Source: a virus
Taxonomy: Duplodnaviria > Heunggongvirae > Uroviricota > Caudoviricetes
DNA length: 64,000 bases
Virus record (IMG/VR): IMGVR_UViG_3300029736_000004
Direction: 5' to 3' (one strand)
The position numbers were made by a program, and so were the translations under genes. Positions within the stretch are counted from its first letter, which is position 1, and each line of letters begins with the position of its first letter. Below the pieces are notes generated by a model, which had not been told where the DNA came from, ran no database searches, and saw only the letters and a program-made list of their open reading frames with translations. Shown piece after piece: positions 14,999 through 52,063 of the stretch.

Positions 14999-15020
14999 AA
15001 CCCTGTGTGATCCTTCAAAT

Positions 15021-27021: not shown

Positions 27022-27412
27022 AGTGAGTGCTTTTGTGACCTTTTTTAGTAATACAATCCTTTGGTACAAAAAAGCCGCCGTCCAGTCAATGACGGCGGGC
27101 AAAATGAACACTCAGTTAGTGGTATCTGAGAGGGGGGCATTATATTCACTGAATGACGCTTGTGAAGACTCACATGTCATCATTTTGTCCTCAAGAATCA
27201 GCTCACATCTTGCGCATTCAAGCGTATTTCTCTTTAAAGCCGTGTTTGGACCATTTTGTTGATACGCGAATTTGGCATCCTCCACGCTCTGAGTGACGAG
27301 GTTTACGGACCACCGGGCCATCATATGCATCCATTTTGTGTGAATGGCATTTAGTCGGGAAATAACAAACTGGATAAGTTGAAGCCGCGTTAAACGTCAT
27401 TTCTGGAGGGGT

Positions 27413-27739: not shown

Positions 27740-28185
27740 TGGGTGACTTTGGAAATTATTTCATTTTTATCATGGCATTTGTTGCCGTTATTGACCGTTT
27801 CTTATTTCGTCGCAAGAGTGTTGATATTTTGAGCATTGGCGAAGCTGTAGTGAAAGAGTCTGCTATAGCGTTTCCTGTGTCGCTTCGCGTTAAACGAAGC
27901 TGGGTAAGCAATGCACAAATCGAATATTGGTTGCAGGACTTGAAAAATCCATCTGTGGTTATTTCGGGGAAAACCAGACCAGTTGACGCGTCAAAACGCG
28001 GTGAGAGAGAAGAATATTTGCTCATCGACACGAAATATCTTGAGCCAGCGAAGTGGGATCTAAAGGTCACATTGACTAACGGTAATTGCCGCCTGAATCC
28101 GCTTTATCGCATTTTCCCTATCAATGACTGCATAGAACGTCAGTTTATGATTGAAAAGTGTGAAGGAGACTGGAATGTCAAATAA
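27739..28185 (+). CDS. hypothetical protein (P1 LydB position), N-terminal TM
   Basis: 148 aa; start overlaps upstream stop (TAATG). Confidence 0.35.
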   Translation: MGDFGNYFIFIMAFVAVIDRFLFRRKSVDILSIGEAVVKESAIAFPVSLRVKRSWVSNAQIEYWLQDLKNPSVVISGKTRPVDASKRGEREEYLLIDTKYLEPAKWDLKVTLTNGNCRLNPLYRIFPINDCIERQFMIEKCEGDWNVK

Positions 28186-28792
28186 GTCTAATTATGTTCT
28201 TCTTAATTATGATGAGTTAAACGAAAAGGGGCTGGCAAAACTCGTCAAAGAAATCGGTAAAGGAGGCTACAAGATAGCGAGGGTGATCCCCGCCAGTAAT
28301 GGCAGGAAGAAAGACGGGATCATGACGCGCACGTTTACCCTTATCGGAATCGATGAGCAGACGATGGACGTTCAGGTTAATGATACTGGTGATATTTCTG
28401 GTGTAAAACTGAACGGAAAAATTGTTCCTTTCAAGCCAGTTAAAACGCTGATGGCTTTAGGGCAATCACTGGCTGCTTTATTTAATAAAGGCGCATCATC
28501 ATTTCAGAAATCATTGGCGCGTAAGTTAGCTCGTGCGGCGAAAGATATTGATGATGGGAATAAGAAAATAAAAGGCGTTAAGTCCAATGCGCAGAAACTA
28601 GCAGAGGCAAAGGAATCTCGCGATGCGATCCGCGAGGATATTGAAAGGGCCAAAGAAAAATTAAATCAGGTGCAAGGTAATTCAGACCGCGCAACAAGAG
28701 AAACTGAAATCATTAGAACCGAGATGGCGCAGGAACTGGCGAAAACTCGCGTATTGAAAGAAGAAATAGCGCGCCTGGAGGAAGATGCATGA
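28175..28792 (+). CDS. coiled-coil protein of Dar-operon-like block (Hdf-like by position)
   Basis: GGAGAC SD before ATG 28175 (ORF track TTG start 28151); Lys/Glu-rich coiled coil. Confidence 0.35.
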   Translation: MSNKSNYVLLNYDELNEKGLAKLVKEIGKGGYKIARVIPASNGRKKDGIMTRTFTLIGIDEQTMDVQVNDTGDISGVKLNGKIVPFKPVKTLMALGQSLAALFNKGASSFQKSLARKLARAAKDIDDGNKKIKGVKSNAQKLAEAKESRDAIREDIERAKEKLNQVQGNSDRATRETEIIRTEMAQELAKTRVLKEEIARLEEDA

Positions 28793-30741
28793 TAAAGAAA
28801 CCTATTCGAATAAATATCCAGTCCACTTTTGCAGATACGCTCACTGGATATACGCCTAATCGTTGGGTGGCGGAAGATATCACCGAGGATGATTTACTTA
28901 TCGAGCCTGCGACGCTGGAAGATATCGAGCTGGCCTATATGGGCAACGAAATTTTGGTAACTACCAATGAGGCAATGTTCGAAGCCATAACCACAACAAA
29001 ATTGCGGTTAGCGCAAACAATGCGAGCATTTGTCCGGGCGCTTAATCGCGGCCTGAATGGCACTGACATTGCTGCGGGTACGGATGAGGCAGGTGAATAT
29101 GAAGACGGACGTAATAGTATCGGTGGGGCAATCATTGGGCGCGTGCGCCGGGTTGCTAATATCCCTGTTGTAACAGCACAAATACCTCTAACCGATGGAC
29201 AAACGACAAGCATAATTTTCCATTCTCCAACCGCAGACGGCACAAGAATTAAAGGGGATGACGAGCTGGTTGCGTTTCAGTTTCTTCTTAACAAAAGAAA
29301 CGTTACGCATGTTGTTGCGCCAATCGGTGGGCGTGATGTATCTCTGAGCCAGGTGTGTCAGGCGCTTTCTAACCTCATTGAGCGTAACAGTGCAAAATTC
29401 AAAAAAGCAAAGGAGCGCCAGGACAAAATGAAGGCTGATATTGAGGGGTATCTCAATGAAGCCGACAAGCTGGCAGAAGAACGTTCTGTGCTGATTGAGC
29501 AGGTTGAAGACGCACAGCGGGGGCTGGCAGAGAAACGCTCAACACTCAATGATATGCAGAATAAATTAGACGCACAAAAAGCCCTTAACGCGGAATTGCA
29601 GGCTAAACGCGATAATTTATTGTCAGCTAAGAGCCAAGGAACTAAAGAGCGTGCCTTCAATGATCAACTGCGACACATAAAACATAATCTTGCTACAGAA
29701 GGCCAAACAACGCTGGATAATGGTGCTGTAGTTAAGTATGTCACGTCAGGCAGTGATAGCTTTGTCACGATTGAGGCACCAGAAGGCAATTTCAGTATTG
29801 ATGTCAGTGCTGTTAAAGGTGGGAGTTCAGCGGACGCTGCAACCAAATTACTTAAAGCCTATCGTGAACATAATGCTGATCAATACAAAGTGGATGTGTT
29901 GCCGGGCCAGCCTGAGCCAACTGATCAGCCGCAGCCTGAACAGGAGCCACAACCAGCATCACATCCTGATCCCCTGGAGGTTGGTAAATATCGCTATGCG
30001 CTCCAATCTCGCCCGGCGGGTGTTGGTGCGGTTCCTGAAGGAAATAAAGCTGTACTTGACCGTCCTGATCAGGCTGATCCGTATTACGAATATGCTCGTC
30101 ACGGAATCATTACGTATGACCGCAAACTGACAGACGAAGAAGTCAGTCAGTACGAGTTGCTATATCTCCCTGGTGACGATGAATTGAAAGAGATTGCAGG
30201 CGAATTGGTTGCGTCCAGTATGTCGAACCATATTGATGGCTATGTTGATCTGTTTAGAAGCGACTTGAAAACCTTTAAGGCGCAGATAAAAATCCTCTTC
30301 CGCAAAGCATTTCCTAACGTCGCTTATCCACTTGGAGATGGGGAGAACCTTTTTATAATGGATATCTATGACGCGCTTCAGAATCAATCAGAAGTAGTCG
30401 AAGCTGAACAGACATTAGATCAGGCACCGGAAGCAGTACAAGAACCAGAACCTGAGTCTGAACCTGAATCCCCCCAAGAGTCTGATACAGGTTCAGATGG
30501 GCCAGTAGTTAGTGAGGCTGATCAGGAGGCGGACAGTGCGCTGGAATATCTGAAATCCGTGCCGTTGCAGTTTACGTCCCGTGATTTGACGGTGATTAGA
30601 GCGGAGTTTGATCGCATTCAGGAGGCAGCTAATGTTCTTATCAACGCAGGTCGATATGATGAGAACGAGTCACTTGTTGGTGCGGCAGCCGATCACCTGA
30701 TCAACATTCTGGCAGAGATACAACAAGGGGGCGTGTGGTGA
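28789..30741 (+). CDS. DarA-like internal head / antirestriction protein (by size and position)
   Basis: 650 aa (P1 DarA is about 640 aa), acidic Pro/Glu-rich C-terminal region; GGAGGA SD. Confidence 0.35.
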   Translation: MIKKPIRINIQSTFADTLTGYTPNRWVAEDITEDDLLIEPATLEDIELAYMGNEILVTTNEAMFEAITTTKLRLAQTMRAFVRALNRGLNGTDIAAGTDEAGEYEDGRNSIGGAIIGRVRRVANIPVVTAQIPLTDGQTTSIIFHSPTADGTRIKGDDELVAFQFLLNKRNVTHVVAPIGGRDVSLSQVCQALSNLIERNSAKFKKAKERQDKMKADIEGYLNEADKLAEERSVLIEQVEDAQRGLAEKRSTLNDMQNKLDAQKALNAELQAKRDNLLSAKSQGTKERAFNDQLRHIKHNLATEGQTTLDNGAVVKYVTSGSDSFVTIEAPEGNFSIDVSAVKGGSSADAATKLLKAYREHNADQYKVDVLPGQPEPTDQPQPEQEPQPASHPDPLEVGKYRYALQSRPAGVGAVPEGNKAVLDRPDQADPYYEYARHGIITYDRKLTDEEVSQYELLYLPGDDELKEIAGELVASSMSNHIDGYVDLFRSDLKTFKAQIKILFRKAFPNVAYPLGDGENLFIMDIYDALQNQSEVVEAEQTLDQAPEAVQEPEPESEPESPQESDTGSDGPVVSEADQEADSALEYLKSVPLQFTSRDLTVIRAEFDRIQEAANVLINAGRYDENESLVGAAADHLINILAEIQQGGVW

Positions 30742-31106
30742 AAATATCAGTAACGGAGCGCCTTAGCTTAGGCAAAGAACTGTCTGAGCTGATGTCAGCG
30801 CAAAAAAGCGCGACTGCGGTACAACGTGTCACTATTGGCGTGCGGATAGTTGAAGTGATGATGAAGCTGGGGCTTGGTTCATCGAATAATCCAGCACAAC
30901 AGCAAGAAGAGGAAGTGCAACCGGCGGCACAAGAAACGCCTAAAATTGTTGCTGACTTCCTTAGTGGTGCATTTACTAAATCATCACAAATGGAGTTCAT
31001 CGATGCTTTGAGAGGCATATCTCAATATATTGGTGAATTTTTGACACTCGACCAGGCCAAAGAACAGACCGTAAACTGGGTTTCAGCTAACGGGTATGCA
31101 GCGTAA
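30735..31106 (+). CDS. hypothetical protein (DdrA position)
   Basis: 123-aa ORF overlapping upstream stop; terminator-like hairpin follows. Confidence 0.35.
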   Translation: MVKISVTERLSLGKELSELMSAQKSATAVQRVTIGVRIVEVMMKLGLGSSNNPAQQQEEEVQPAAQETPKIVADFLSGAFTKSSQMEFIDALRGISQYIGEFLTLDQAKEQTVNWVSANGYAA

Positions 31107-31197: not shown

Positions 31198-32583
31198 GTG
31201 ACTCAAAACGTAACATCAGCACTTCTGGCCGCAGCGAACATTGAGGGGGTTATCGCTGTGGTGTCATCTCTTGAAAAGCAAGAGACGAAGTTGGGGCGTA
31301 GCAGCTATGTCGTCACCAGCAAAGGCGACGAAGTTAAAACAGCGTTCAAGGTTATTGATGCCAAAAAGCTCATCATTTCTAACAACCTGGACGGAAGTAT
31401 AAATCCGTCATTTCCGGAGGAACTCCAGCCTCGCGATCGCACCCGACTGTCAAGTAAGCTCCAGGTTAACCGTATCGCCGCCAATTTACGCCCGGCACAG
31501 CTCACTGATTCGGGTATGAGTAGTCATGGTTCCCCGATTGTTGGTCCGGATAATGTCGTTGAGTCTGGTAATGGTCGAAGCATGGGAATCTGGCGTGCTT
31601 ATGAACAAGGACAGGCTGAAGATTACCGACAATATCTTATCGATCACGCTAAAGAGTTTGGCCTTAATCCCGAAGACGTCAGGGCAATGGTGATGCCTGT
31701 ACTGGTTCGCGAGCGCCTCACTGACGTTGATCGTGCTCAATTTGCACGCGACTCAAACATCAGCGATCTGCAAGAGATGGCTGCAAGTGAGAAAGCGTAT
31801 GCGGATGCGCAATTTCTCACTGAGAGCGTCATGGCGCTATTTAATCCTTCAGATGATGGAAATCTACTGGCGCGGTCCAATGATGCGTTTATTCGTGCGT
31901 TTTTGCACGAAATAGGCGATACCGCGACGGCAGGTTTGCTTACAGCCGATGGACGTCCAACGAAACAGCTTATCGATCGCATTCAGAATGCGATTTTTGC
32001 CAAAGCCTATAAGGATGAGCGACTTGTTCGGCTTGTGGCGGAAGAACCGGATCCGGAAATGCGCAATATCCTGACCGCGCTTAATACAGCAGCCAGTGAC
32101 TTTGCGCAAATGCAGTCGATTTCTGGCGATGCACATCATGATGCTGTAACTGGTCTGGTTGATGGTATAGAGCAGGTGAACGGTCTGGATAAACAGGCTA
32201 TAGCAGCACTCCAGGACGCGATTAACCTTGTTCGTGAAGCCAAAGACAACGGTCAGGCAGTGGAAGAGGTGATAGCCCAGCGCGGACTCTTCGGTGATAG
32301 CACGCCGGAAGCCGAGGCGTTGGCGCTATTCATCGTGGCAAATAATCGAAGCGCGAAGCGCATGGGGGCTGCATTCAAAAAAATGGCACAAAAAATCAAC
32401 GACGAACTGATTCATAAACAGCAGGCGTTGGGCGATATGTTCGGCGGTGGAGATGTCGATCTACGTAGTATTTTGACCGCTGTTTCTAATGAGATTGAAC
32501 TGGAACATGGAGAGGGGAAAGGGCTTAACTTCACGATGTTCGAAGCCAAAACAGAACAAAGCGATTTTGGGCTGGAAACCTGA
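31198..32583 (+). CDS. hypothetical protein (DdrB position)
   Basis: 461 aa; GTG start with AAAGGTGG SD. Confidence 0.35.
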   Translation: MTQNVTSALLAAANIEGVIAVVSSLEKQETKLGRSSYVVTSKGDEVKTAFKVIDAKKLIISNNLDGSINPSFPEELQPRDRTRLSSKLQVNRIAANLRPAQLTDSGMSSHGSPIVGPDNVVESGNGRSMGIWRAYEQGQAEDYRQYLIDHAKEFGLNPEDVRAMVMPVLVRERLTDVDRAQFARDSNISDLQEMAASEKAYADAQFLTESVMALFNPSDDGNLLARSNDAFIRAFLHEIGDTATAGLLTADGRPTKQLIDRIQNAIFAKAYKDERLVRLVAEEPDPEMRNILTALNTAASDFAQMQSISGDAHHDAVTGLVDGIEQVNGLDKQAIAALQDAINLVREAKDNGQAVEEVIAQRGLFGDSTPEAEALALFIVANNRSAKRMGAAFKKMAQKINDELIHKQQALGDMFGGGDVDLRSILTAVSNEIELEHGEGKGLNFTMFEAKTEQSDFGLET

Positions 32584-32695: not shown

Positions 32696-33127
32696 TCACC
32701 GCATTGGTGTGACAGATACGGCGATATTTTTATTCAGTTGATGCAGTGCCAGCTCGACAGTTTCAACTTTCGATGAATGTTCGACGTCGAGAAGCCGATC
32801 AATCTGTGTTCCATTTTTTCCGAGTTTGCGCGCCAACTCTGCTTTGCGTGTGCCGGTTTCTATCATCGCGTTGTGGAGTGCAGCCTTCATTGCTGGTAGC
32901 ACTGGCAAAGAGACAACGTACTCACCTTCTTTTGGCTCGCTACCAGTGGGAACAGGTCGGCGTTCTTCAATCTCAATCGCAACCGCTGCGACCAATCCAT
33001 AACCAGCCTCAAGCAACGCTTCTTCAACTGAGTCACCCACGGAATTAAACAATGGTAGGTCGCGGCATGATACGACATACGCGCCGGTTTTGTCGTCGCG
33101 CTCCAGTTTTACCGGATAGTTAAACAT
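32696..33127 (-). CDS. hicB: HicB antitoxin
   Basis: 143 aa immediately downstream of the HicA-like gene; C-terminal HTH-like segment (TRKAELARKLGKNGTQIDRLL). Confidence 0.7.
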   Translation of the reverse strand: MFNYPVKLERDDKTGAYVVSCRDLPLFNSVGDSVEEALLEAGYGLVAAVAIEIEERRPVPTGSEPKEGEYVVSLPVLPAMKAALHNAMIETGTRKAELARKLGKNGTQIDRLLDVEHSSKVETVELALHQLNKNIAVSVTPMR

Positions 33128-33157
33128 AGAGAAGCTCCTAGTGAAAAAGGCTGGGGC

Positions 33158-33340
33158 TTAAAGCCCCAGGTCCTTCATTATTTTCTTGCGTAGCGGTTCA
33201 GGCATTTCCTTTGAACCGTGGTCCGGGAAAACCGACCGCTTTCCGTTCAGGTTCACTTTCTGATGACTGCCGCCACCAGGCGCTTTCCTGAACTCTGCCC
33301 CTTGCTGGATTAACCAGCGTTTGAACTCTGAATACTTCAC
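33158..33340 (-). CDS. hicA: HicA mRNA-interferase toxin
   Basis: 60 aa; MKYSEFKRWL...GGSHQKV...RSVFPDHG...PLRKKIMKDLGL matches the HicA pattern. Confidence 0.8.
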   Translation of the reverse strand: MKYSEFKRWLIQQGAEFRKAPGGGSHQKVNLNGKRSVFPDHGSKEMPEPLRKKIMKDLGL

Positions 33341-33572
33341 AAGTTTCCTTATGCAATTTATCCATCATGGGCGATAAGAATAGTAACACAAAAGATATAA
33401 AACACAACAAAAATGTTTATAAACATAACTTCCTTGTTTGGTGGTTGCGTTTTTGGAAAAGCATTTCCGCATATGAAAAAACATCAGCATATGGTGAAAA
33501 CAACGAAAAATTACTGATGAAATCACACACTGGATAAGCTGCCACGAAATCGGAAACCTTTTGCGGTGAATC

Positions 33573-37514: not shown

Positions 37515-37599
37515 CAAGAATGTATGATTTATATCGTCACTAAAAAACAGCATCTGATAAAAATTCTGTTGATCTTTCTAATGTTCAGGCTTATATTCA

Positions 37600-37830
37600 T
37601 GCCGTCGTAGCAAATTCTGCGACCGGGTTTAGCAGCCTGAATGTTAGTGCGGACAACCGCAGATATCCGATATTGCGGTATTTTTGTGTCCGTAAAACCG
37701 CGTTACGCCCAAATTATGGTGGGGCGTGATGGGGAGGCTTCGGCCTGCTGGTTTCACTAACGCCAGTCTGCTAACCCCGTCACGTCCTGCCACCTGTTTA
37801 GCAGCGGGTAGCAGGTTGTTAAACCTGTTA
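37600..37830 (+). ncRNA. candidate c4-like antisense RNA / structured leader
   Basis: TTTAGCAGC at 37628 and 37798 is complementary to CTGCTAA at 37768; GAGGCTTCGGCCTGC tetraloop hairpin; lies upstream of icd-like and Rha-family genes. Confidence 0.3.
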
Positions 37831-38982: not shown

Positions 38983-39005
38983 CCCCGGCCTGGCCGGGGC
39001 TTTTT
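38983..39005 (+). terminator. rho-independent terminator
   Basis: GCCCCGGCC-T-GGCCGGGGC hairpin followed by TTTTT. Confidence 0.6.
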
Positions 39006-39490
39006 CATGCCTCATTAGTTGAGGTTGCTGCGTCTCCGACAGGTAACAGAGCTGTATTGCGTGGTTCGCCAGCAGGCCAGCGATAGCCAGACACTCTTGA
39101 TGTTGGGAATGCGCGAATATTAACAGCATCCCCCTGGTTCCCACCCAAGACAAGCAGATCGCCATTGGCGCGGCGTCCGACAACAAAGCCTACATGCCCA
39201 CCGCCTGCGCGAGTAAATACAACGATACATCCGTATGCCGGTGTATCTAATTTCTCGCCCCAATCCAGATAGGATTTTGCCGACTCAAATCTTGTTGAGC
39301 GGATACCTACACGTTCCAGCATTGCACCAACAAATGCAGCGCACCACGGCGTTTCGTCGTCTTTAATTCCGCTGCGCTTAATATCCCGCCAGAACTGGAC
39401 GATCTCAGGATTGTGTTTCGCTCCTTTTATTTCGGTGACTCCAATATTTTTACGGGCCTCAATAAGCCAACGAGGTTCATTGTTTGCCAT
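39005..39490 (-). CDS. peptidoglycan hydrolase (CHAP/NlpC-P60-like, TIGR02594-type)
   Basis: 161 aa; conserved Cys (ETPWCAAFVG) and His (GGHVGFVVG) spaced as in cysteine-peptidase cell-wall hydrolases; GGGAGA SD. Confidence 0.45.
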   Translation of the reverse strand: MANNEPRWLIEARKNIGVTEIKGAKHNPEIVQFWRDIKRSGIKDDETPWCAAFVGAMLERVGIRSTRFESAKSYLDWGEKLDTPAYGCIVVFTRAGGGHVGFVVGRRANGDLLVLGGNQGDAVNIRAFPTSRVSGYRWPAGEPRNTALLPVGDAATSTNEA

Positions 39491-39627
39491 ATATTTCTCC
39501 CGGTCATGGGTTAATAAGTAGGCAAACTATGGTGAGTATATGATTTTGACGGTAGTATCGTTCATCCCTGAAAATAACATTCTCCATACCCTCTCAAACC
39601 GTACCGCTTAAGGCGGATTTAACGGTT

Positions 39628-42600
39628 TTGAGGGGGCTTCCTTTGGACAAAATAATTGATTCAATTAGCCAGGCCACCAGCATTGGGGCGCTGATTGAAA
39701 TTGTTAGTCGGTTGCATAAACCGCGAGCTGTAGTGACCTTTGGCGTTAAGAAAGTCGATGGCGTCAGTATTCAGAAAACACGCCGGGCAGCAAACAACGC
39801 CGCAGTAAATCTTCTTAATTCCCTTCCGCCTGGCTTCGATGGGGCGAAATTAACTGACGAACAGCGTCAGATTCTTGCCGGGTATACCGGTGAAGGCGGC
39901 CTGACAGATGGTGAGGGCAGCCAATACGAATACTATACGCCACAGTTTATGGCAGAAGGTATATGGGATCTCTTCGGCGACTACGGTATTGATAGCGGTC
40001 ACGTACTGGAACCGTCAGCAGGCACAGGTATTTTCCAGGAGACAAAACGGCAGGGCATGATAATGACCAGCGCCGAACTGTCTCCGATCTCCGGTCGAAT
40101 AAACCAGCTTTTGCACCCGGAAGATGATGTGAATATCGGGGCGTTTGAGGCGCTGGCGGCGAAAGATGCAATGTATGACCACGCAGTTGGTAACGTACCG
40201 TTTGGCGAAGGGCGTTCCGGCGTCGCCGGGCTTGATCCGGCATATGCAAACGAGAAGAACGTTGGCAATTATTTTGTGCTGCGCACGATCGACAAGGTTA
40301 AGCCTGGTGGACTAATTGTATTGGTGGTGCCGAATGGCATGACCGATGGTACGAAATACAAAAAATTGCGCGATAAAGTCAGCCGTAAAGCGGAATTTTT
40401 GGGCGCGCATCGTATGCCTTCTGGTACGTTCAGCGAATCCGGTACAGATACCGTGGTGGACGTATGGGTATTGCGTAAACACCCGGAAACCTTCCTGGAG
40501 ATGATCCCCGACACGGATGATGCAACGCTCAAATCGGCAAACGTCCTTTGGGATACCTTCCTCAAAGGGAAATGGTTTACAACCGAAGGGAAGCGATTTG
40601 TTTACGGCGACATGGAACGCACCAGCTTCCGCAATACCCTGGTGGTGAAAAAGGACGGTCGTGTATCCAATGAGTCGATGAAAACCGCGTTATCACGCCG
40701 CTTTGAAAGCCGTATTAATTGGGATTTGCTCGGAGTAACTACCCAGGCATGGCAGGGCGCAAAAGTAGGGGATAAGCGTCTTGTAGGCGGTATCTGGCAT
40801 GAGTTTGATGGCCTGAAATGGGTTAAGGACACGACAACCAAATCCTCCGCGCTTGATGTAAGTCGATATGGTGTTTCGACGTTTGGCGATCTGCAGATCG
40901 CGTTCCAGTCAACAAACGGGATTCTGGCTTTGTCATGGGACCAGATATCGGCGATCGCGTCCGACTATCCATCGGTTGTCAGTGATGAAGTGGCAGCAAT
41001 GATTCGCTTTGCTGGCAAACAGCGAGAAAAAGACAGGGAGCGCGTTATGCGCGGTGCACTGATAGGTCAGTTGATCAACAAGGCACTTGATTTGCGTAAC
41101 CTGGGGGGGAACGTTGATGACAAACTGGCAGATGCATCCCGCCTGGCGGCAGCAGAAGTTGCGAAGTATGGACCACCGCACGCGATTAAGCTGAATGGGC
41201 TTGCAGAAGCTGGAGCTAAAAACTGGATGACGTTCACTGGCAATGTGAAACAGGATGGTTCCACTTCTGACCTTCTGGCAGGGCGACTTGATGTAACGGA
41301 TGGTGCTGCCGGTATTGACTTTACACGTCCGGAACAAGTGATAGCACATCTTTTCAGTGATGTAGCCCTTAATCCTATAACGCTGGGCGACTTTCGTGAG
41401 GCGTTTGCTGGTGAACTGCCAGAGGACGACGACGCGGCCCTTGAATACCTGGCGAAATTTGATGATATCGCTATTGATGGGTATGGCTGCCTGCTGCCGA
41501 TGGACCGCGCCACCAGCGGCGATATTGCAACCAAAACAACATTGCTGGTGGGCTGGCGTGATGCGTCAACAGGTGAACAGAAAGCGAACTTTGAGCGTCA
41601 GTTGGCGAAAATCGAAGAGAAACGCATTTTCACGCCACTAAATAAAGTCACCGTTAATCTGAACGCCCGCTGGCTGGATCGCCGCTTGATAAAAGAGTTC
41701 CTGGCAGAGCAGGGCTATGACGAGTTTAAGTACACTGAACCTGATCTGAAGGTCGTCGATGGCATTCTGGTATCTCCGGACGATTACGAAGGTAAGGACG
41801 GGGTATTTACCGGCTATCAGCTACGAACCGTAAACGGCAAAAACGGGAATGAGTTCAAGAAGGCCAACAATAAAGACGGCTTCCTGAACCAGTTAGAAAA
41901 CTACCTGAACGGTGTTAAACCGCGTGGGCAGAACGCTAACGAGTACCTGGATAAAATTGCTCAACTGGAAGTTAGCTTTAACGACTGGTTACGCACCCAC
42001 CCGCAGGCGGATCAGATAGCCCGTGACTATAACGACGCATTCAATGGCTTCATTCCGTTCACGCACTCTAACGCACCGCTTGGCCTGGAAGGGATTAGTG
42101 GAAAGCGCATTCCTCTGACTTATCAGAATGAAGAAGTTCGTCGCTTGTCAGAAGATGGGCGCGGCATCATGGGATTTGGTACCGGGCTGGGTAAAACCAC
42201 GACCGCGCTTGCGCTTGAGGCGTATAACTTCGAAACAGGTCGTACTAAACGCACGTGTATTGTTGTTCCGAAGGCGGTTTATCAGAACTGGTATCACGAG
42301 GCACAGAGCTTCTACAGTGCTGATGCCTTCGCCAATATGATGTTTATCGGTCTGGATGAAGTTCGTGATGAAGACGGCAATATTCTGACCGCGCCGGTGC
42401 TTGATGAAAATGGCGAACCCCGCCTCGACAGTAACGGGCAGCCTCTTACCAGAAATGTTGTGAAAGAGTCCGCCAGCGCCGTTATCGTTCAGCGCATGAA
42501 CATGATCCCGTCGTCAAATTGGCGAACGGTCATCATGACAAAAGAACAATTCGCGTCTATCCCGCTACGAGAAAAAACCATCGAGGAGAACTCACAGCAA

Positions 42601-45600
42601 GCTGTCTTTAATGCTGTGGAAATGGGGCGTCTTGACCTGGCGTCTGGTAAACACCGTGATGCGCAGAAGAAGAACAAGATTAAGGATCAGGCCGCGAATA
42701 CCGGTACAACGAAGAAGCAGAATATCCCGTACTTTGAGGATATGAACTTCGATAGCGTGATTGCCGACGAGGGGCATAACTACCGCAACTCCTTTAATGC
42801 CGGGCGTGAAGCGGGACAACTGGCATATTTGCCTAACCCGGCAGTATCCAAGATGGCCCGCGACATGGCTGTAAAAGCTGCGTACATGATGAAACGCAAC
42901 AACGGGCGTGGTGTAGTCATGCTGACGGCAACTCCGCTGGTGAACAGTCCGATTGATGCCTTCAACATGCTGTCTACTGTCATTCCGCAGGAAGAGTGGA
43001 TGCGCATGGGCATTATTACGCCGGATGATTTCGTTCGCGTGTTCGGCAAAACAGCCACAGTTCAGGTTCAGAAAATTTCCGGTGAGGTGGAAGAGAAGCA
43101 GGGGCTGGTGGGCTTCCAGAACCTTGATGGTCTGCGTGGTATTTTCCACCGTTGGACCACTCTGAAGACTGCCGCAGATGTCGGAGCGACGGTTAAAATT
43201 CCCGACATCATCGAGAACACCTTGCAGATCCCGATGACAGGGGAGCAGGAGGCTGCTTATGAAGAGCTTCGTAAGCGTGCTCAGGAGTTAAGTCGCAATG
43301 ATGAGCTGACAGTCGATGAAAACGGGCATATCACTAACGACAAACCGGATGATTTCATCTTCTCCATCATCCGCGACATGGATAAGGTTGCTATAGATCC
43401 GGATCTGTATGCCAGTGCGATTACATTCCAGTTCCCCGTTGAGCTTGCAGACAAGGTAAAAGCTATTGCGGATGCCCTGCCAAAAGTCGCAGGCGGTAAA
43501 GTGGCAGATGATGCAGACGAGGCCGAAGAAGACGGCGCTGGTGGACTGGTCAGTACGCGTACCAGCAAGGTAGTGAAGACCACCTTTAGTGAACATCCGG
43601 CGCATGTTGAAATACGCGCCAGCATTGAACTGGAAGCTGAAATACTGAAGGCCATTGCTGCCGCCGGGATTGATCTGCAGCAGGTATCACACCCCATCCC
43701 GCCGAAGTATGCCGCGCTGATCGAAAACCTTCGTGAAGGTTTGAAGAACGGTAAACAAATTGTCTTCATTGATGAAAAAGCCCAGCACCAGAAGCTGCGC
43801 CGTATTATCGCCAGTGCACTGCAAATGCCGGAGCAGGAGATAGGCATTATCAATGCGACGACCGTTAGCCAGGCTGGCGGCATCAAGCTGAAGAAGGTGA
43901 ATAAGCCGACTGAACCTACTCCGAATAAAAACGGTGAATACAAAGAAGGGGCATGGGAAACCTACTACAGCAAACTTGCCCAATATGAGGATTATCTCTC
44001 AGCTAAAAATGATGCTGGCCTTGAGGGTATGGAAGGCATTGCCGCCGACTATAACGAAGGGCGCACGCGCATCATTATCTGTAACAAGAAGGCTGAAGTA
44101 GGTATTAACCTGCATATCGGGACAACCGATATCCACCACCTGACACTACCCTGGACACCAGCCAGTATCGACCAACGAAATGGGCGCGGTGCGCGCGTAG
44201 GTTCACCGCAAGAGAAGGTCAATGTTCACTACTATTGTGGCAAAGGCACATTCGACGACTTCCGTCTGGATACGCTGAAACGTAAGAAAGACTGGATCAA
44301 GATGGTGATGACCTCCGACATGTCAGAGATCGCCAATGGTGATGCGGATGATGCTGATGAACGCGCCATTATGCTGGCGGCAAACCCGGAAGAACGCCGC
44401 GCAATCATGGCTCGCCAGGCGCAAGAGCGCGAAGAACGTCTGAAACTGAAAGCACAGCGCGAGGCCAACAATGCTCTCGATATCTACCTGAAAGCGGCAA
44501 ACGCCGCTGGAAAAGATATCGGCATGATGGAGACAGAACTGAAAAGCGCGATGGAACAGATAGAGTATTACCAGCGAAATCTTGACGACCTGATAAAAGC
44601 GGGTACGAACAGGAATGGGCAAAAATTCGCGCTTGAGCAGTTGAGTAGCTACAGAAAACGTGCGCGGGTGCTGCGGTTTGCGATCACCAGGGCAAAAGAC
44701 GCGGATACCATAATGAAACGCTCTCGTGGTGATGTGGAGCGAGCTATTAAGTCTGGTGTGCTGGATATCAGTATCGATGTTATTCAGAACCCACAGGAAT
44801 ATATGCGCACTGACAAGAATATCCTGTTGCATAAAGGTAGTTATTACCGTGCAGTCATTGATGATCGCGAAACAACAGCGATTGTCCGGGTGGAAAAAAT
44901 TGACGGTGAAAAAGCACAATACCTCTGCCGTATCGCCTGGCTGGATAGAGCAAGTCGTTACGCTCGATCACCGGGGTCAATCGTTACATTGCCGTTTGAC
45001 TCTGTGATTGAAGCGGTAACTTTTGAAGAGGGGGTAGCTGAATCGCGCGCAACGGCTGCGCGTGGTGTTCAGTGCCACCAGCTATCAACAATACTTACTC
45101 GCGATCAGTTCTATGATGCTATTCGCAATGGGGTAATGAATGTTATTGCTGGTAAACCTGGTAATGCATGGGGCGGTGGGTCAGCTATTAAATACTGGGC
45201 ATATCGCACAGATGATGGTCAGATCGCGCTGTCATCGGCCTATGATGGCGTGATAGGCCAAAAAATCGGGCGAGCATCGGATATAGCACCTGAACGATGG
45301 ATATATCCAGATGGCAACGATGAGGCGCTGAAGCGTGAAGTGGCAAAAATACAAGCCAGTGATAACCCGCTGAATATCGTGGACGGCGAGGGATTCCTCC
45401 AGGCATTGTATGGGTATGATTACATCCAGGGAATGCAGGCATGGGGCGCACAGGCAACGATGGATGATGTTGTCCAGGAGTTCGAAAACTGGATGGCTGG
45501 GCGTGGTCTGTCAGGTCGTTCGCTTAATAAAGTCACTTCTGAAGATATTCTTAGCTTGTTCCGCAAACCGTCCGGAGAAGGTCTGGAATCATTCTGGAGG

Positions 45601-46479
45601 ACCGTGCTGGCATACCGTTTATTCAAGGGCAGAATGAAAGCCTTTAGCAATATCGATGATATTGAACGGATGTTTAATCAGGTCAAGATCGCGAAAATTA
45701 AGACGAAGATCGAAAAAACACGTTCTGCGCTGGTGGCCTGGCGCGATGCATTGTTTGAGCAATATAAATCACTCAGTGATGCAGATGGATGGGCGGCATT
45801 GGAACAGTTGGCGAATAATGGGGTAGATGGAGCGAAACTCGCCATAGTCCAGGCTGATAACCCCCTGGAATCACCGGCAGCACAGTGGATTAAGGTGGGG
45901 GCTGTCATCAATGCATTTGATGAAAAACACATTAGTAAGGACGATTTTGCTGATGCTGTTTCTGTTAATCGCCTGGTAGAAATGGCTACCCGCCGCGCCC
46001 GTGAGTTGAAAGACGGTGACTATGTGAATGAGTTGCCGGATGCGCTCAAATCAGCAACGTGGCAAGACTATGTATCGCTGAAAAACGGCGGGGCCACCGA
46101 ATCAGAGATCGCGGAAAGGCTTGAACAGGCTGAAAGCAAAAGAGAAGAGCAGGCGGCAGTGGCTGAAGCCAGAGCTGATGAAGCGGCGAATGATGACTAT
46201 ATCATTGTGGTTAATGATAAGCCGATTCGCGCTAAGGCGCGTGTTCGCGGGCGCTGGTGGAGTGTCAGCGAGGACGTCGGTGCGGTTTATCTCATTGCCG
46301 ACCAACCTGGTTCCTCGACAATACGGAACGCCAAAGACGCGATTAAGAAGATTGGCGGGCGTTTCTGGAATTTTGAAGCAAACCCGGTTGCTGATGTGAA
46401 CTTTGACCGTCCGGCATGGATGGTATCTACGCGTTACTCGGTAGATGAACTGCGTAAAATAATCGCCGATGCGGCCTAA
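39628..46479 (+). CDS. DarB-like N6-adenine methyltransferase / SF2 helicase fusion
   Basis: 2283 aa; MTase motifs EPSAGTGIF and GNVPFGEG; helicase Walker A GFGTGLGKTT, DEGH box, motif VI QRNGRGARVG; start may be TTG 39628 or 39643. Confidence 0.7.
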   Translation: MRGLPLDKIIDSISQATSIGALIEIVSRLHKPRAVVTFGVKKVDGVSIQKTRRAANNAAVNLLNSLPPGFDGAKLTDEQRQILAGYTGEGGLTDGEGSQYEYYTPQFMAEGIWDLFGDYGIDSGHVLEPSAGTGIFQETKRQGMIMTSAELSPISGRINQLLHPEDDVNIGAFEALAAKDAMYDHAVGNVPFGEGRSGVAGLDPAYANEKNVGNYFVLRTIDKVKPGGLIVLVVPNGMTDGTKYKKLRDKVSRKAEFLGAHRMPSGTFSESGTDTVVDVWVLRKHPETFLEMIPDTDDATLKSANVLWDTFLKGKWFTTEGKRFVYGDMERTSFRNTLVVKKDGRVSNESMKTALSRRFESRINWDLLGVTTQAWQGAKVGDKRLVGGIWHEFDGLKWVKDTTTKSSALDVSRYGVSTFGDLQIAFQSTNGILALSWDQISAIASDYPSVVSDEVAAMIRFAGKQREKDRERVMRGALIGQLINKALDLRNLGGNVDDKLADASRLAAAEVAKYGPPHAIKLNGLAEAGAKNWMTFTGNVKQDGSTSDLLAGRLDVTDGAAGIDFTRPEQVIAHLFSDVALNPITLGDFREAFAGELPEDDDAALEYLAKFDDIAIDGYGCLLPMDRATSGDIATKTTLLVGWRDASTGEQKANFERQLAKIEEKRIFTPLNKVTVNLNARWLDRRLIKEFLAEQGYDEFKYTEPDLKVVDGILVSPDDYEGKDGVFTGYQLRTVNGKNGNEFKKANNKDGFLNQLENYLNGVKPRGQNANEYLDKIAQLEVSFNDWLRTHPQADQIARDYNDAFNGFIPFTHSNAPLGLEGISGKRIPLTYQNEEVRRLSEDGRGIMGFGTGLGKTTTALALEAYNFETGRTKRTCIVVPKAVYQNWYHEAQSFYSADAFANMMFIGLDEVRDEDGNILTAPVLDENGEPRLDSNGQPLTRNVVKESASAVIVQRMNMIPSSNWRTVIMTKEQFASIPLREKTIEENSQQAVFNAVEMGRLDLASGKHRDAQKKNKIKDQAANTGTTKKQNIPYFEDMNFDSVIADEGHNYRNSFNAGREAGQLAYLPNPAVSKMARDMAVKAAYMMKRNNGRGVVMLTATPLVNSPIDAFNMLSTVIPQEEWMRMGIITPDDFVRVFGKTATVQVQKISGEVEEKQGLVGFQNLDGLRGIFHRWTTLKTAADVGATVKIPDIIENTLQIPMTGEQEAAYEELRKRAQELSRNDELTVDENGHITNDKPDDFIFSIIRDMDKVAIDPDLYASAITFQFPVELADKVKAIADALPKVAGGKVADDADEAEEDGAGGLVSTRTSKVVKTTFSEHPAHVEIRASIELEAEILKAIAAAGIDLQQVSHPIPPKYAALIENLREGLKNGKQIVFIDEKAQHQKLRRIIASALQMPEQEIGIINATTVSQAGGIKLKKVNKPTEPTPNKNGEYKEGAWETYYSKLAQYEDYLSAKNDAGLEGMEGIAADYNEGRTRIIICNKKAEVGINLHIGTTDIHHLTLPWTPASIDQRNGRGARVGSPQEKVNVHYYCGKGTFDDFRLDTLKRKKDWIKMVMTSDMSEIANGDADDADERAIMLAANPEERRAIMARQAQEREERLKLKAQREANNALDIYLKAANAAGKDIGMMETELKSAMEQIEYYQRNLDDLIKAGTNRNGQKFALEQLSSYRKRARVLRFAITRAKDADTIMKRSRGDVERAIKSGVLDISIDVIQNPQEYMRTDKNILLHKGSYYRAVIDDRETTAIVRVEKIDGEKAQYLCRIAWLDRASRYARSPGSIVTLPFDSVIEAVTFEEGVAESRATAARGVQCHQLSTILTRDQFYDAIRNGVMNVIAGKPGNAWGGGSAIKYWAYRTDDGQIALSSAYDGVIGQKIGRASDIAPERWIYPDGNDEALKREVAKIQASDNPLNIVDGEGFLQALYGYDYIQGMQAWGAQATMDDVVQEFENWMAGRGLSGRSLNKVTSEDILSLFRKPSGEGLESFWRTVLAYRLFKGRMKAFSNIDDIERMFNQVKIAKIKTKIEKTRSALVAWRDALFEQYKSLSDADGWAALEQLANNGVDGAKLAIVQADNPLESPAAQWIKVGAVINAFDEKHISKDDFADAVSVNRLVEMATRRARELKDGDYVNELPDALKSATWQDYVSLKNGGATESEIAERLEQAESKREEQAAVAEARADEAANDDYIIVVNDKPIRAKARVRGRWWSVSEDVGAVYLIADQPGSSTIRNAKDAIKKIGGRFWNFEANPVADVNFDRPAWMVSTRYSVDELRKIIADAA

Positions 46480-46515: not shown

Positions 46516-46950
46516 ATGACGACATTAATTGACACTGTAAAACCGACGGAATCCTACCTTGAGGACATTTTGCCGCAGGCGCTCAATGGCAGGAGTGAAG
46601 AGGCGTTTCTGGATGCATATCTGGATGGCATGGCGGAAAGGCTGAAAAGAGATCCACAGCTTTATCATCTTTATGGGCCGTGGTGGCCTGCGCTTAAAAC
46701 GTTATTGCTGGAGCGCGGCGACATATCATTTGGACAAGTTGTAGATAGTGATGTGGCAGAAATCTACAAAATGAGTCGCCCGGCGCTTACGGTTTTAGCC
46801 GGGCATCTGTATTCGAGCGATCGCCTGGAAAATGACGCGGTATACAATCCCGTTCATGCTCTGGAAGTCGCGCCTTATGCTGATGATACAGAGCCATACG
46901 TATACACAAGTTACGACGAGTCTATAGAGAAATATCGAATCGTGGGGTAG
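46516..46950 (+). CDS. hypothetical protein
   Basis: 144-aa ORF. Confidence 0.45.
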   Translation: MTTLIDTVKPTESYLEDILPQALNGRSEEAFLDAYLDGMAERLKRDPQLYHLYGPWWPALKTLLLERGDISFGQVVDSDVAEIYKMSRPALTVLAGHLYSSDRLENDAVYNPVHALEVAPYADDTEPYVYTSYDESIEKYRIVG

Positions 46951-51034: not shown

Positions 51035-51111
51035 GATGGTGTAGCTCAGTAGGATAGAGCAGCAGCCTTCTAAGCTGTCGGTCGGTGGTTCGAATCCACC
51101 CACCATCGCCA
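51035..51111 (+). tRNA. tRNA-Arg (anticodon TCT)
   Basis: Cloverleaf: acceptor GATGGTG/CACCATC, D-arm TAGCTCAGTAGGATAGAGC, anticodon loop CTTCTAA, T-arm GGTGGTTCGAATCCACC, CCA end. Confidence 0.85.
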
Positions 51112-51116
51112 ATTTA

Positions 51117-51203
51117 GGGGAGTTAGTCCGTAGGGGTAGCGGGGTAGACTGTAAATCTACTGTCATTGCGACTCGGATGGTTCGACTCCATCACTCCCCA
51201 CCA
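51117..51203 (+). tRNA. tRNA-Tyr (anticodon GTA)
   Basis: Acceptor GGGGAGT/ACTCCCC, anticodon stem-loop GTAGA-CTGTAAA-TCTAC, long variable arm, T-loop TTCGACT, CCA. Confidence 0.8.
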
Positions 51204-51207
51204 AATT

Positions 51208-51283
51208 GCCGGTTTAGCTCAGTTGGTAGAGCAGTCGCTTTGTAAGCGAATGGTCAGCGGTTCGATCCCGTTAACCGGCACCA
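51208..51283 (+). tRNA. tRNA-Thr (anticodon TGT)
   Basis: Acceptor GCCGGTT/AACCGGC, D-arm GCTCAGTTGGTAGAGC, anticodon loop TTTGTAA, T-loop TTCGATC, CCA. Confidence 0.8.
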
Positions 51284-51296
51284 ACACAACAGGTAA

Positions 51297-51361
51297 GGGT
51301 ATTTTGCGACATCGGAGATCGCCGAGCTTGGCAGAGGGTTCGAATCCCTACGAAGTACCCT
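51297..51361 (+). other. tRNA-like element lacking a canonical anticodon arm (possible degenerate tRNA)
   Basis: Acceptor-like GGGTATT/AGTACCC, D-arm-like GCGA...TCGC, T-arm GAGGGTTCGAATCCCTA, but only 11 nt between D and T arms; extended outer stem CACAACAGGTAAGGG/CCCTTGCCGTTGTG. Confidence 0.25.
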
Positions 51362-51471
51362 TGCCGTTGTGATGAATGCACAGGCTGATGTGCCGCAACT
51401 ACAGTAGTGCGCGCTTTGCGGGGCTTGCTACAACCCTGTGTCGGAGTTCAGCACCGACCATCACAATCACT

Positions 51472-51558
51472 GGAGAGTAGGGAGCATGGTGCTCAAGCGG
51501 TCTTGAAAACCGTCCCATTGCGCAAGCGATGATGGTTCGATTCCATTACTCTCCGCCA
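51472..51558 (+). tRNA. tRNA-Ser (anticodon TGA)
   Basis: Acceptor GGAGAGT/ACTCTCC, anticodon stem-loop GCGGT-CTTGAAA-ACCGT, long variable arm, T-arm GATGGTTCGATTCCATT, CCA. Confidence 0.8.
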
Positions 51559-51849
51559 GCGCAACGTTAAGAGTATTTGGCTAATTAAGCGAATGCCGGA
51601 AGCAGAACCGGATCACCAAATGCGTACAGGCGTCATCGCCGCCCAGTCAGCCAAATGCTCTTACCATTGCGGTGAATGCGGCTAAGCGCACGCGGAACAG
51701 TTAAAACAGTAAAGGTGGTCTTTTTACTGGCGTAACGAGCATCCATAAGTGATCCGGCGTTAATTGTTAACTGGTTAACGTCACCGGGAGGCACCCGGCA
51801 CCGCAACCTAACAGCAATGGCGTTTTGTCTTAAAAGGTGGCTGCAAGTG

Positions 51850-51978
51850 ATGGATTTTTGGGCGTTTGCCGATAAAAACCCGGAGTGGACATTATTGTTT
51901 CTGCTGGTGGTTGCATACGGGGTAGAGCAAGCGGCAAAAGCCTTACGCGGTTCTGGCAAAAAGCGTAAGCGTAATTAA
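51850..51978 (+). CDS. small hydrophobic ORF (42 aa) between tRNA genes
   Basis: MDFWAFADKNPEWTLLFLLVVAYGVEQAAKALRGSGKKRKRN; not in the ORF track (under 60 aa); AAAGGTGG upstream. Confidence 0.25.
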   Translation: MDFWAFADKNPEWTLLFLLVVAYGVEQAAKALRGSGKKRKRN

Positions 51979-51987
51979 CAGTAATCT

Positions 51988-52063
51988 GGCCCTTTAGCTC
52001 AGTGGTTAGAGCGGGCGACTCATAATCGCACGGTCACCGGTTCAAGTCCGGTAGGGGCCACCA
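51988..52063 (+). tRNA. tRNA-Ile2-like (anticodon CAT; Met not excluded)
   Basis: GGCCCTTTAGCTCAGTGGTTAGAGCGGGCGACTCATAATCGC...GGTTCAAGTCCGGTAGGGGCCACCA closely resembles E. coli ileX-type tRNA (recalled). Confidence 0.8.

What the first reader, a model, noticed from the sequence alone, without database searches (positions are those of the whole stretch)
39628..46479. Giant 2283-aa methyltransferase-helicase (DarB-like)
An N-terminal N6-adenine methyltransferase module is fused to an SF2 helicase core and a long C-terminal region. The size and domain order match P1 DarB, a capsid-packaged antirestriction protein; the start codon is uncertain (TTG). This is a likely anti-defence component, and its divergence from P1 DarB would be worth measuring.
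Basis: partly seen in the sequence, partly recalled or inferred. Interest (0 to 1): 0.45.

Follow-up and report, generated by a model that had tools for sequence, protein, structure and literature searches.

The report
DarB antirestriction gene of D6-like phage
This giant gene is the already-annotated DarB homologue of a phage D6-like (P1-family) plasmid prophage of E. coli. It encodes a methyltransferase-translocase that, by analogy with phage P1, is probably packed into the phage head and injected with the DNA to protect it from host type I restriction, so it is a real but ordinary, known feature.

Summary
The ORF is real (39628-46479, + strand). The likely start is the second in-frame TTG at 39643. 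It follows a GAGGGGG ribosome-binding site and aligns with Met1 of P1 DarB. It is also the start used in the D6 and RefSeq annotations, which gives 2278 aa rather than 2283.

The window is a phage D6-like, P1-family plasmid prophage. The protein is 98.2% identical to D6 orf15, annotated as "defense against restriction, similar to P1 darB". It is 99.3-99.6% identical to "SNF2-related protein" entries on E. coli plasmids.

It is collinear with P1 DarB along its whole length, at 41% identity overall. By region: N-terminus and methyltransferase 48-55%, helicase blocks 57-68%, C-terminal third 15-26%.

All catalytic motifs of a gamma-class N6-adenine methyltransferase and of an SNF2 ATPase are invariant across 37 relatives. 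No nuclease was detected by profile scans or in the two modelled regions.

The five other Dar genes (hdf, darA, ddrA, ddrB, ulx) are all in the window, with ulx directly downstream.

Virion packaging and antirestriction activity remain inferred, and the biochemical mechanism is unknown even for P1. Novelty: already known. Interest is low.

The parts
39643..46479 (+). darB coding sequence (2278 aa plus stop) with the most likely TTG start. The maximal ORF starts at the TTG at 39628.
39630..39636 (+). Shine-Dalgarno-like GAGGGGG, six bases upstream of the TTG at 39643
   Evidence: Read directly from the sequence
39643..39732 (+). N-terminal 30 residues, the positional equivalent of the P1 DarB capsid-targeting sequence. 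Poorly conserved against P1. 11 of the 41 amino-acid differences from D6 fall in residues 4-38.
   Evidence: P1 experiments in PMC9024508
39733..39927 (+). Rest of the helical N-terminal domain (LPD36 of Iyer et al. 2017), with the G-x-G-[GAS] motif GEGG at aa 83-86. G83, G85 and G86 are invariant in 36 sequences.
   Evidence: definition from PMC5512222
39928..40542 (+). Gamma-class N6-adenine DNA methyltransferase core (aa ~96-300). Motifs: TP cap T99-P100, SAM motif EPSAGTG 123-129, catalytic N-V-P-F 184-187. All are invariant or nearly so.
40543..42102 (+). Middle region (aa ~301-820), mixed alpha/beta and confidently modelled, with no family assignment. Moderately conserved.
42103..44322 (+). 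SNF2-type SF2 ATPase/translocase (aa ~821-1560). Motifs: Walker A GTGLGKT 846-852, DEGH 1042-1045, TATP 1095-1098, QRNGRGAR 1511-1518. All are invariant or nearly so across 37 sequences.
44323..46476 (+). Fast-evolving C-terminal module (aa 1561-2278). It contains long antiparallel helices (~1565-1703), a small Tudor/SH3-like beta barrel (~1720-1792, weak support), helical bundles, and a terminal alpha/beta domain (~2186-2277). No enzymatic fold was detected. The module is restricted to DarB-like proteins.
46516..46950 (+). ulx homologue (144 aa). In P1, Ulx is needed for DarB localisation to the capsid.
   Evidence: PMC9024508
28175..28792 (+). hdf homologue with a DarA_N domain (40% identity to P1 Hdf)
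28789..30741 (+). darA homologue (650 aa; DarA_N + DarA_C; NCBIfam anti_RE_DarA, 1083 bits)
30735..31106 (+). ddrA homologue (35% identity to P1 DdrA). The start is uncertain: PGAP uses 30738.
31198..32583 (+). ddrB homologue (461 aa). It covers only the first ~442 of the 995 residues of P1 DdrB and includes the ddrB-ParB domain.

Best explanation
This is the darB gene of a phage D6-like, P1-family plasmid prophage.

Proposed mechanism, by analogy with P1:
1. The 2278-aa protein is made during lytic growth.
2. It is recruited into the prohead through its N-terminal ~30-residue targeting peptide, after the Hdf/DarA/DdrA/DdrB scaffold and together with Ulx, at tens of copies per head.
3. It is ejected with the DNA into the next host.
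4. There it acts in cis on the entering genome. An SNF2-type dsDNA translocase moves a HsdM/TaqI-like N6-adenine methyltransferase along the DNA.
5. As a result, type IA restriction enzymes (the EcoKI/EcoBI class) do not cleave the DNA, either because their sites are methylated or because their complexes are blocked or displaced.

Shown here: homology, domain architecture, invariance of both catalytic motif sets, lack of any detected nuclease, and the complete Dar gene set in the window.

Inferred: packaging, ejection, cis action and the target spectrum (all from P1 experiments), and the translocating-methylase step (the proposal of Iyer et al. 2017, which has not been demonstrated in any system).
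For: Identity and homology:
- 97.1% nucleotide identity to D6 darB and 98.2% protein identity to D6 orf15, annotated as a darB homologue.
- Collinear homology to P1 DarB over the whole length.
- PHROG 'DarB-like antirestriction' and a full-length match to phrog_1685.

Catalytic capacity:
- SNF2-rel_dom and Helicase_C.
- Invariant EYYTP, EPSxGTG, GNVPFG, TGLGKT, DEGHNYRN, TATP and QRNGRGARVG across 37 homologues spanning 36-96% identity. This argues that both activities are under purifying selection.

Context:
- ulx lies immediately downstream, and hdf-darA-ddrA-ddrB is present.
- The same darB/ulx-position gene, DarA and DdrB context occurs in a 40%-identical Aeromonas relative.
- The homologues found sit mostly on ~80-100 kb contigs typical of P1-like phage-plasmids.
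- The window still carries EcoKI (4) and EcoBI (21) sites, so it is a potential type I target.

P1 experiments from the literature:
- DarB is a head protein detected by LC-MS/MS, at ~40 copies per virion, and its N-terminal 30 residues are sufficient for capsid targeting (PMC9024508).
Against: - No experiment on this protein or on D6 DarB was found.
- The N-terminal targeting region is poorly conserved relative to P1.
- No promoter could be assigned, so late expression is not shown. No P1-type late-promoter box lies upstream of darB, and the candidate D6-type box found upstream of lydA and prt is absent there.
- DdrB, a partner needed for DarB function in P1, is half-length here.
- The biochemical mechanism of P1 DarB is undefined. 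Plasmid-based antirestriction attributed to darB was shown to be a DNA effect (Chi plus an EcoKI site triggering restriction alleviation), independent of the protein and of its catalytic residues (PMC11109961).
- The C-terminal third is only 15-26% identical to P1, so the target spectrum may differ.
Confidence: 0.8

Rival explanations
1. The protein is a prophage-encoded defence or restriction-modification-like enzyme (type ISP, type IIG/L, BREX PglX-like or DISARM DrmD-like). On this reading it protects the lysogen against other phages, rather than being an injected counter-defence protein.
For: - A methyltransferase plus an SF2 motor in one polypeptide resembles type ISP and type III logic.
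- There are weak local hits to DrmD, ZorD, DpdE and BrxH helicase motifs.
Against: - The hits to defence models are only 16-45 bits, against curated cut-offs of 500-1100, and cover only generic helicase motifs.
- The domain order (methyltransferase before helicase) differs from type ISP enzymes.
- The context is ulx plus head and Dar genes.
- The P1 orthologue is a virion head protein.
Confidence: 0.04
2. The protein is essentially a structural internal head or ejection protein, acting as filler, DNA-condensing protein or pilot protein. On this reading the enzymatic domains are vestigial, and any protection is passive shielding of the entering DNA.
For: - Reviews describe Dar as possibly occluding DNA physically (PMC12707154).
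- DarA and Hdf are coupled to head morphogenesis (PMC12810830).
- About 40 copies of a 250 kDa protein is a large internal mass.
- The long coiled-coil C-terminal module has no enzymatic fold.
Against: - Every catalytic motif of both the methyltransferase and the SNF2 ATPase is invariant across relatives down to 36% identity, whereas the C-terminal third drifts to ~20%. Vestigial domains would not be conserved like this.
- According to the cited papers, P1 darB mutants have an antirestriction defect, not a head-morphogenesis defect.
Confidence: 0.1
3. The gene's contribution to restriction evasion comes partly or wholly from its DNA. It carries many Chi sites which, together with type I sites, can trigger host ClpXP-dependent restriction alleviation, independent of the encoded protein.
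For: - PMC11109961 showed that plasmid-borne P1 darB, even with premature stop codons, alleviates EcoKI restriction through Chi plus an EcoKI site.
- The window has 38 Chi sites against 1.8 expected, 8 of them inside darB.
Against: - That effect was described for resident plasmids acting in trans. Dar protection during infection is strictly in cis and depends on virion proteins.
- Chi enrichment is genome-wide here, not specific to darB.
- An intact 6.8-kb ORF with strong purifying selection (146 synonymous versus 41 non-synonymous codon differences from D6) indicates a functional protein.
Confidence: 0.04

Closest known systems
Escherichia phage D6 orf15 (ASR76325.1, 'defense against restriction; similar to P1 gene darB'), and 'SNF2-related protein' entries on D6-like E. 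coli plasmids (e.g. WP_077543357.1, WP_261629114.1)
   Same: - Same length (2278 aa), same TTG start and same neighbours (CHAP hydrolase gene upstream on the opposite strand, ulx downstream).
- 98.2% identity to D6 and 99.3-99.6% identity to the plasmid alleles.
   Different: - 41 amino-acid differences from D6, 11 of them in residues 4-38.
- The window carries a second N-terminal allele, found in 8 of 107 PLSDB records.
- Some relatives have an extra 166-aa gene inserted just upstream of darB.
Phage P1/P7 DarB (YP_006479.1, 2255 aa), the archetype of the methylase-SNF2 helicase dyad of 'polyvalent proteins' (Iyer et al. 2017)
   Same: - Full-length collinearity and the same domain order: LPD36, gamma N6-adenine methyltransferase, middle region, SNF2 ATPase, C-terminal module.
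- The same catalytic motifs, including the unusual N-V-P-F.
- ulx lies immediately downstream, and the Hdf/DarA/DdrA/DdrB partners are present.
   Different: - Only 41% identical overall. The C-terminal third is 15-26% identical and the N-terminal targeting peptide is barely alignable.
- Different local gene order: in P1, prt-pro are divergent from darB; here prt-pro-repL-immI lie upstream on the same strand.
- The partner DdrB is 461 aa here against 995 aa in P1.
- No experimental data exist for the D6-type protein.
Type I HsdM and TaqI-like gamma-class N6-adenine DNA methyltransferases (e.g. EcoKI M protein 2ar0, M.BseCI 7qw5, M.TaqI 1aqi)
   Same: - TP cap, SAM-binding glycine motif and an NPPY-type catalytic loop.
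   Different: - Only 13-21% identity.
- No HsdS-type specificity partner or recognisable target-recognition domain.
- Fused to an SNF2 motor.
- The catalytic tetrad is N-V-P-F.
Type ISP restriction-modification enzymes (LlaBIII/LlaGI)
   Different: - No Mrr/PD-(D/E)xK nuclease was found.
- The domain order is reversed (methyltransferase before the motor).
- The motor is SNF2-type rather than the RecA-type motor with coupler.
- The context is phage head genes.

Membership tests
P1 DarB family (methylase-SNF2 dyad, virion-borne antirestriction protein) | Full-length collinear sequence homology to P1 DarB | tested here: met
   BLASTP gives 43% identity over 2000 aa (1524 bits). The C-terminal 719 aa align at 23% (E 1e-15), and the last ~130 aa at 27% (E 0.002). 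Global identity is 41%.
P1 DarB family (methylase-SNF2 dyad, virion-borne antirestriction protein) | Domain order of Iyer et al. 2017: LPD36 (helical, G-x-G-[GAS] motif), then an EcoKI/TaqI-like adenine methyltransferase with TP cap and NPP(Y/F)-type motif, then a SWI2/SNF2 ATPase | tested here: met
   - GEGG at aa 83-86, with the glycines invariant.
- T99-P100 invariant, and N184-V-P-F187 invariant.
- SNF2-rel_dom 46.6 bits (cut-off 24.9).

P1 DarB family (methylase-SNF2 dyad, virion-borne antirestriction protein) | Genomic context: ulx directly downstream, and hdf-darA-ddrA-ddrB and P1-type head genes in the same element | tested here: met
   - tblastn with the P1 proteins finds all of them in the window.
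- Ulx matches phrog_1629.
- DarA matches NF052326 with 1083 bits.
- DarA_N, DarA_C and ddrB-ParB Pfam domains are present.
P1 DarB family (methylase-SNF2 dyad, virion-borne antirestriction protein) | Packaged into the capsid through an N-terminal targeting sequence and ejected with the DNA | not testable with these tools
   The N-terminus aligns in position with P1 but shares little sequence with it. The P1 data come from PMC9024508.
P1 DarB family (methylase-SNF2 dyad, virion-borne antirestriction protein) | Protects virion DNA in cis from EcoK/EcoB-type type I restriction | not testable with these tools
   Known only for P1. The window does contain EcoKI and EcoBI sites.
Type ISP / type IIG-L restriction-modification enzymes | A nuclease domain (Mrr or PD-(D/E)xK) in the same polypeptide | tested here: not met
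   - No nuclease family in Pfam, NCBIfam or PADLOC scans.
- aa 830-1560 was not modelled; only profile searches cover it.
DISARM DrmD / Zorya ZorD / Dpd DpdE defence helicases | Whole-protein score above the family's curated cut-off | tested here: not met
   Scores against cut-offs: DrmD 45.4 bits against 610; DpdE 31.6 against 500. PADLOC hits are at most 38 bits and confined to helicase motifs V-VI or motif I.

The most novel reading that the evidence does not exclude
The fast-evolving parts of DarB may be its specificity determinants.

- The C-terminal third (aa ~1600-2278) is 15-26% identical to P1 and occurs in only 165 of 1.84 billion representative clusters, essentially always at the C-terminal end of ~2000-2570-aa DarB-like proteins. 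It could be the module that engages particular host restriction systems. If so, D6-type DarB would have a different antirestriction spectrum from P1 DarB.
- The N-terminal ~40 residues exist as discrete alleles that mostly travel with matching Hdf/DarA alleles. They could be co-adapted to the capsid scaffold.

A more speculative extension, based on my recollection of which adenines are methylated in these sites and not tested here: EcoKI and EcoBI sites share 5'-GCA-3' on one methylated strand. A translocating methylase with a short specificity of that kind could therefore hemimethylate both classes of site in cis.
Probability: 0.15. Interest if true: 0.5.

Novelty: already known. Interest (0 to 1): 0.2.

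Why it matters
DarB is the largest component of the classic P1 defence-against-restriction system, and its mechanism is still undefined about 40 years after its discovery. This window adds no new kind of element. The same gene is annotated in phage D6 and is present on over a hundred sequenced E. coli and Salmonella plasmids.

Its practical value is comparative. A 41%-identical orthologue, together with a graded series of relatives, shows which residues are untouchable (both catalytic centres) and which parts evolve quickly (the targeting peptide and the C-terminal third). That tells an experimenter where to mutate or swap domains.

Tried and rejected
1. **First TTG at 39628 as the start.** Rejected in favour of 39643. 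The nearest purine-rich stretch upstream of 39628 (AAGG at 39610-39613) lies 14 bases upstream, too far for a ribosome-binding site; the GAGGGGG at 39630-39636 precedes the second TTG; and homologues and annotations start at the second TTG.

2. **Homologue search with the C-terminal 719 aa.** It returned only 12 close fragments because of the word pre-filter. I replaced it with a full-length search and a profile search of 1.84 billion representatives.

4. **Profile of the family against PDB sequences.** No hit. A single-sequence search gave only marginal HsdM and INO80 hits.

5. **P1-type late promoter upstream of darB.** Not found. A candidate D6-type box, ACA[AC]ACTGGATAAG, lies upstream of lydA and prt but not of darB. 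Consensus sigma-70 hits are no more frequent than in shuffled sequence. Expression timing therefore remains unresolved.

6. **The 86-aa gene after ulx as an Lxc equivalent.** No similarity to P1 Lxc.

7. **Co-variation of the DarB N-terminal allele with Hdf/DarA.**
   - Perfect in 8 fetched elements.
   - In PLSDB, 7 of 8 records with the window-type allele have the matching hdf, and one recombinant (NZ_AP019805.1) does not.
   - The records are closely related to each other, so this is suggestive only.

8. **Defence-system membership (PADLOC, NCBIfam).** Rejected, because only weak local motif hits were found.


Full report
**Observation.** The window contains an uninterrupted + strand ORF from 39628 to 46479, 2283 codons from the first TTG. 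Nothing on the opposite strand exceeds 220 aa.

The start codon is TTG in either case, but the second in-frame TTG at 39643 is the better candidate:
- It is preceded by GAGGGGG at 39630-39636.
- It aligns with Met1 of P1 DarB and with the N-termini of most of the 36 homologues. Two of them are also recorded with a leucine start.
- It is the start chosen in the phage D6 GenBank record and by PGAP on a 99%-identical plasmid.

The product is therefore most likely 2278 aa.

**What the element is.** The gene is 97.1% identical in DNA to Escherichia phage D6. The surrounding 24 kb is 99% identical to ~90-kb non-mobilizable E. coli plasmids. The window is thus a D6-like member of the P1 family of plasmid prophages.

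In D6 the gene is orf15, annotated 'defense against restriction; similar to P1 gene darB'. RefSeq calls it 'SNF2-related protein'. The window's protein differs from D6 at 41 positions (98.2% identity) and from the closest plasmid alleles at 9-17 positions.

Global identity is 41%, and the proteins are collinear from end to end. The divergence is uneven:

| Region | Identity to P1 DarB |
|---|---|
| N-terminus and methyltransferase (aa 1-300) | 48-55% |
| Middle region (aa 301-800) | 29-46% |
| Conserved helicase blocks | 57-68% |
| C-terminal third (aa 1600-2278) | 15-26% |

The C-terminal third is still significantly alignable (E 1e-15; the terminal domain E 0.002).

**Anatomy.**
- *Profile hits.* Pfam finds N6_Mtase/Eco57I-type, SNF2-rel_dom, ResIII and Helicase_C. 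It finds nothing for aa 301-820 or 1560-2278.
- *Conserved motifs.* In a 37-sequence alignment spanning 36-96% identity, these motifs are invariant or nearly so:
  - Methyltransferase: EYYTP (96-100), EPSxGTG (123-129), GNVPFG (183-188).
  - SNF2: TGLGKT (847-852), DEGHNYRN (1042-1049), TATP (1095-1098), QRNGRGARVG (1511-1520).
- *LPD36 signature.* The N-terminal helical domain carries the G-x-G-[GAS] signature of the LPD36 domain defined by Iyer et al. 2017 (GEGG 83-86).
- *Distribution of the C-terminal module.* A profile of this module finds only 165 representative clusters among 1.84 billion. Apart from short fragments and a few intermediate-length proteins, these are 2000-2570-aa proteins carrying the module at their C-terminal end. 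It is a lineage-restricted, fast-evolving part of DarB-like proteins.

**Context.** All six components of the P1 Dar system are present:
- Hdf (40% identity to P1) at 28175-28792.
- DarA (39%; NCBIfam anti_RE_DarA 1083 bits) at 28789-30741.
- DdrA (35%) at 30735-31106.
- DdrB (64%, but only the first ~442 of 995 P1 residues) at 31198-32583.
- DarB.
- Ulx (46%; PHROG 'Ulx-like anti-restriction') at 46516-46950, 36 bases downstream of darB.

A 40%-identical Aeromonas homologue has the same neighbourhood: a 140-aa gene in the ulx position, with DdrB and DarA nearby. The full-length homologues found are ~2200-2320 aa, and many lie on 80-100-kb contigs from Enterobacterales and Aeromonas. DarB appears to be a widespread gene of P1-like phage-plasmids.

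**How it most likely works.** The P1 literature establishes the following:
- DarB is a head protein present at ~40 copies, the last Dar component to be incorporated. Its N-terminal 30 residues suffice to target a reporter protein to the capsid (PMC9024508).
[quoted passage not shown] DarB, Ulx and DdrB are needed against EcoB and EcoK (PMC12810830).
- Protection acts only in cis on DNA from the same virion (PMC12707154).

Given orthology, synteny and strict conservation of both catalytic centres, I infer the same life history for this protein. I also commit to the model of Iyer et al. (PMC5512222): an SNF2 dsDNA translocase carries an HsdM-like adenine methyltransferase along the entering genome, making it refractory to type IA restriction.

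The enzymatic step is not demonstrated in any system. The motif invariance argues only that both activities matter. One caveat: antirestriction by plasmid-borne P1 darB was shown to be a DNA effect (Chi plus an EcoKI site triggering ClpXP-dependent restriction alleviation), independent of the protein (PMC11109961). The window's darB likewise contains 8 Chi sites.

**Rivals.**
- *A defence or restriction-modification enzyme of the prophage.* Unlikely. No nuclease was found, hits to defence models are only generic helicase-motif hits, and the context is head and Dar genes.
- *A purely structural or shielding protein with vestigial enzymes.* This conflicts with the motif invariance.
- *A DNA-only (Chi) effect.* This does not fit the cis requirement. 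It also does not fit purifying selection on a 6.8-kb ORF (146 synonymous versus 41 non-synonymous codon differences from D6).

**Side observation on the N-terminus.** Of the 41 substitutions relative to D6, 11 lie in residues 4-38, the equivalent of the P1 targeting peptide. Two discrete N-terminal alleles exist.
- In eight fetched elements, the allele co-segregates with the Hdf allele (100/99.5% versus 80%) and largely with DarA. The DarB body stays 98-99.6% identical, and the intervening genes assort differently.
- In PLSDB, 8 of 107 records carry the window allele. Seven of these carry the matching hdf, and one (NZ_AP019805.1) does not.
- The records are closely related, so this is only a hint of co-adaptation between the targeting peptide and the scaffold.

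**Verdict.** The feature is already known and annotated in phage D6 and in many plasmids. Interest is low. Its residual value is as a divergent orthologue for dissecting the still-unknown mechanism of DarB.

Noticed in passing
whole window; inside darB at 39674(-), 41510(-), 41544(+), 43104(+), 43537(+), 45075(-), 45729(+), 46253(+): Chi sites (GCTGGTGG) occur 38 times in the window against 1.8 expected from shuffles, 28 of them on the + strand. Eight lie inside darB. Strong Chi enrichment is reported for P1 (PMC11109961), and it is relevant to the reported Chi-dependent restriction-alleviation artefact of cloned darB.
   Followed up: partly
39643-39760 (DarB aa 1-40), versus 28175-30741 (hdf, darA): The DarB N-terminal ~40 residues exist as two discrete alleles among D6-like plasmids. 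The window allele occurs in 8 of 107 PLSDB records, and 7 of these also carry the window-type hdf (>=99%). One recombinant, NZ_AP019805.1, has the other hdf allele. This may reflect co-adaptation of the targeting peptide and the capsid scaffold, or it may simply be lineage structure.
   Followed up: partly
31198-32583: DdrB is 461 aa here (as in D6) against 995 aa in P1. Only the N-terminal part, with the ddrB-ParB domain (aa 42-173), is present, although in P1 DdrB aids DarB addition to the capsid.
   Followed up: partly
37591-37797: Rfam finds the C4 antisense RNA (70 bits) and its a1/b1 target element (53.9 bits) just upstream of icd and the antirepressor gene. This is the immI immunity region of P1-like phages.
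   Followed up: no
51035-52063: A cluster of five tRNA genes lies on the + strand (Arg-tct, Tyr-gta, Thr-tgt, Ser-tga, Met-cat). The D6 record annotates a different set (Asn, Thr, Ser) in the corresponding region.
   Followed up: no
27365-27378 and 33525-33538: The box ACA[AC]ACTGGATAAG occurs exactly twice, upstream of the lydA/dar operon and upstream of the portal gene (4 matches with <=2 mismatches against 0.83 expected). It is a candidate D6-type late promoter element. No copy lies upstream of darB, and P1-type late-promoter boxes are essentially absent from the window.
   Followed up: partly
about 32696-33340, - strand: A HicA-family toxin gene and a 143-aa partner (as annotated on the 99%-identical plasmid NZ_LR890273) sit between ddrB and the portal gene. 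D6 has two unrelated + strand ORFs (orf23/24) there, so this is a variable cargo slot inside the head/Dar gene block.
   Followed up: no
L010 (CP099081.1) 11702-18541; L004/L006 upstream of darB: Allelic variation in relatives. One plasmid has a premature stop at darB codon 601, and the gene is annotated there as two genes. Two others carry an extra 166-aa 'carboxypeptidase-like regulatory domain' gene between the CHAP hydrolase gene and darB. That gene is absent from the window.
   Followed up: partly
whole window: EcoBI sites (TGA N8 TGCT) occur 21 times against 10.6 expected (1 of 100 shuffles reach 21), mostly on the - strand. EcoKI sites occur 4 times against 9.1 expected. Type I target sites are therefore not purged from this genome.
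   Followed up: no
39005-39490, - strand: A 161-aa CHAP-domain peptidoglycan hydrolase gene is transcribed divergently from darB. It resembles the C-terminal lysozyme part of 'baseplate hub subunit and tail lysozyme' PHROG 1259 (E 2.4e-47). P1 has no such gene at this position.
   Followed up: no
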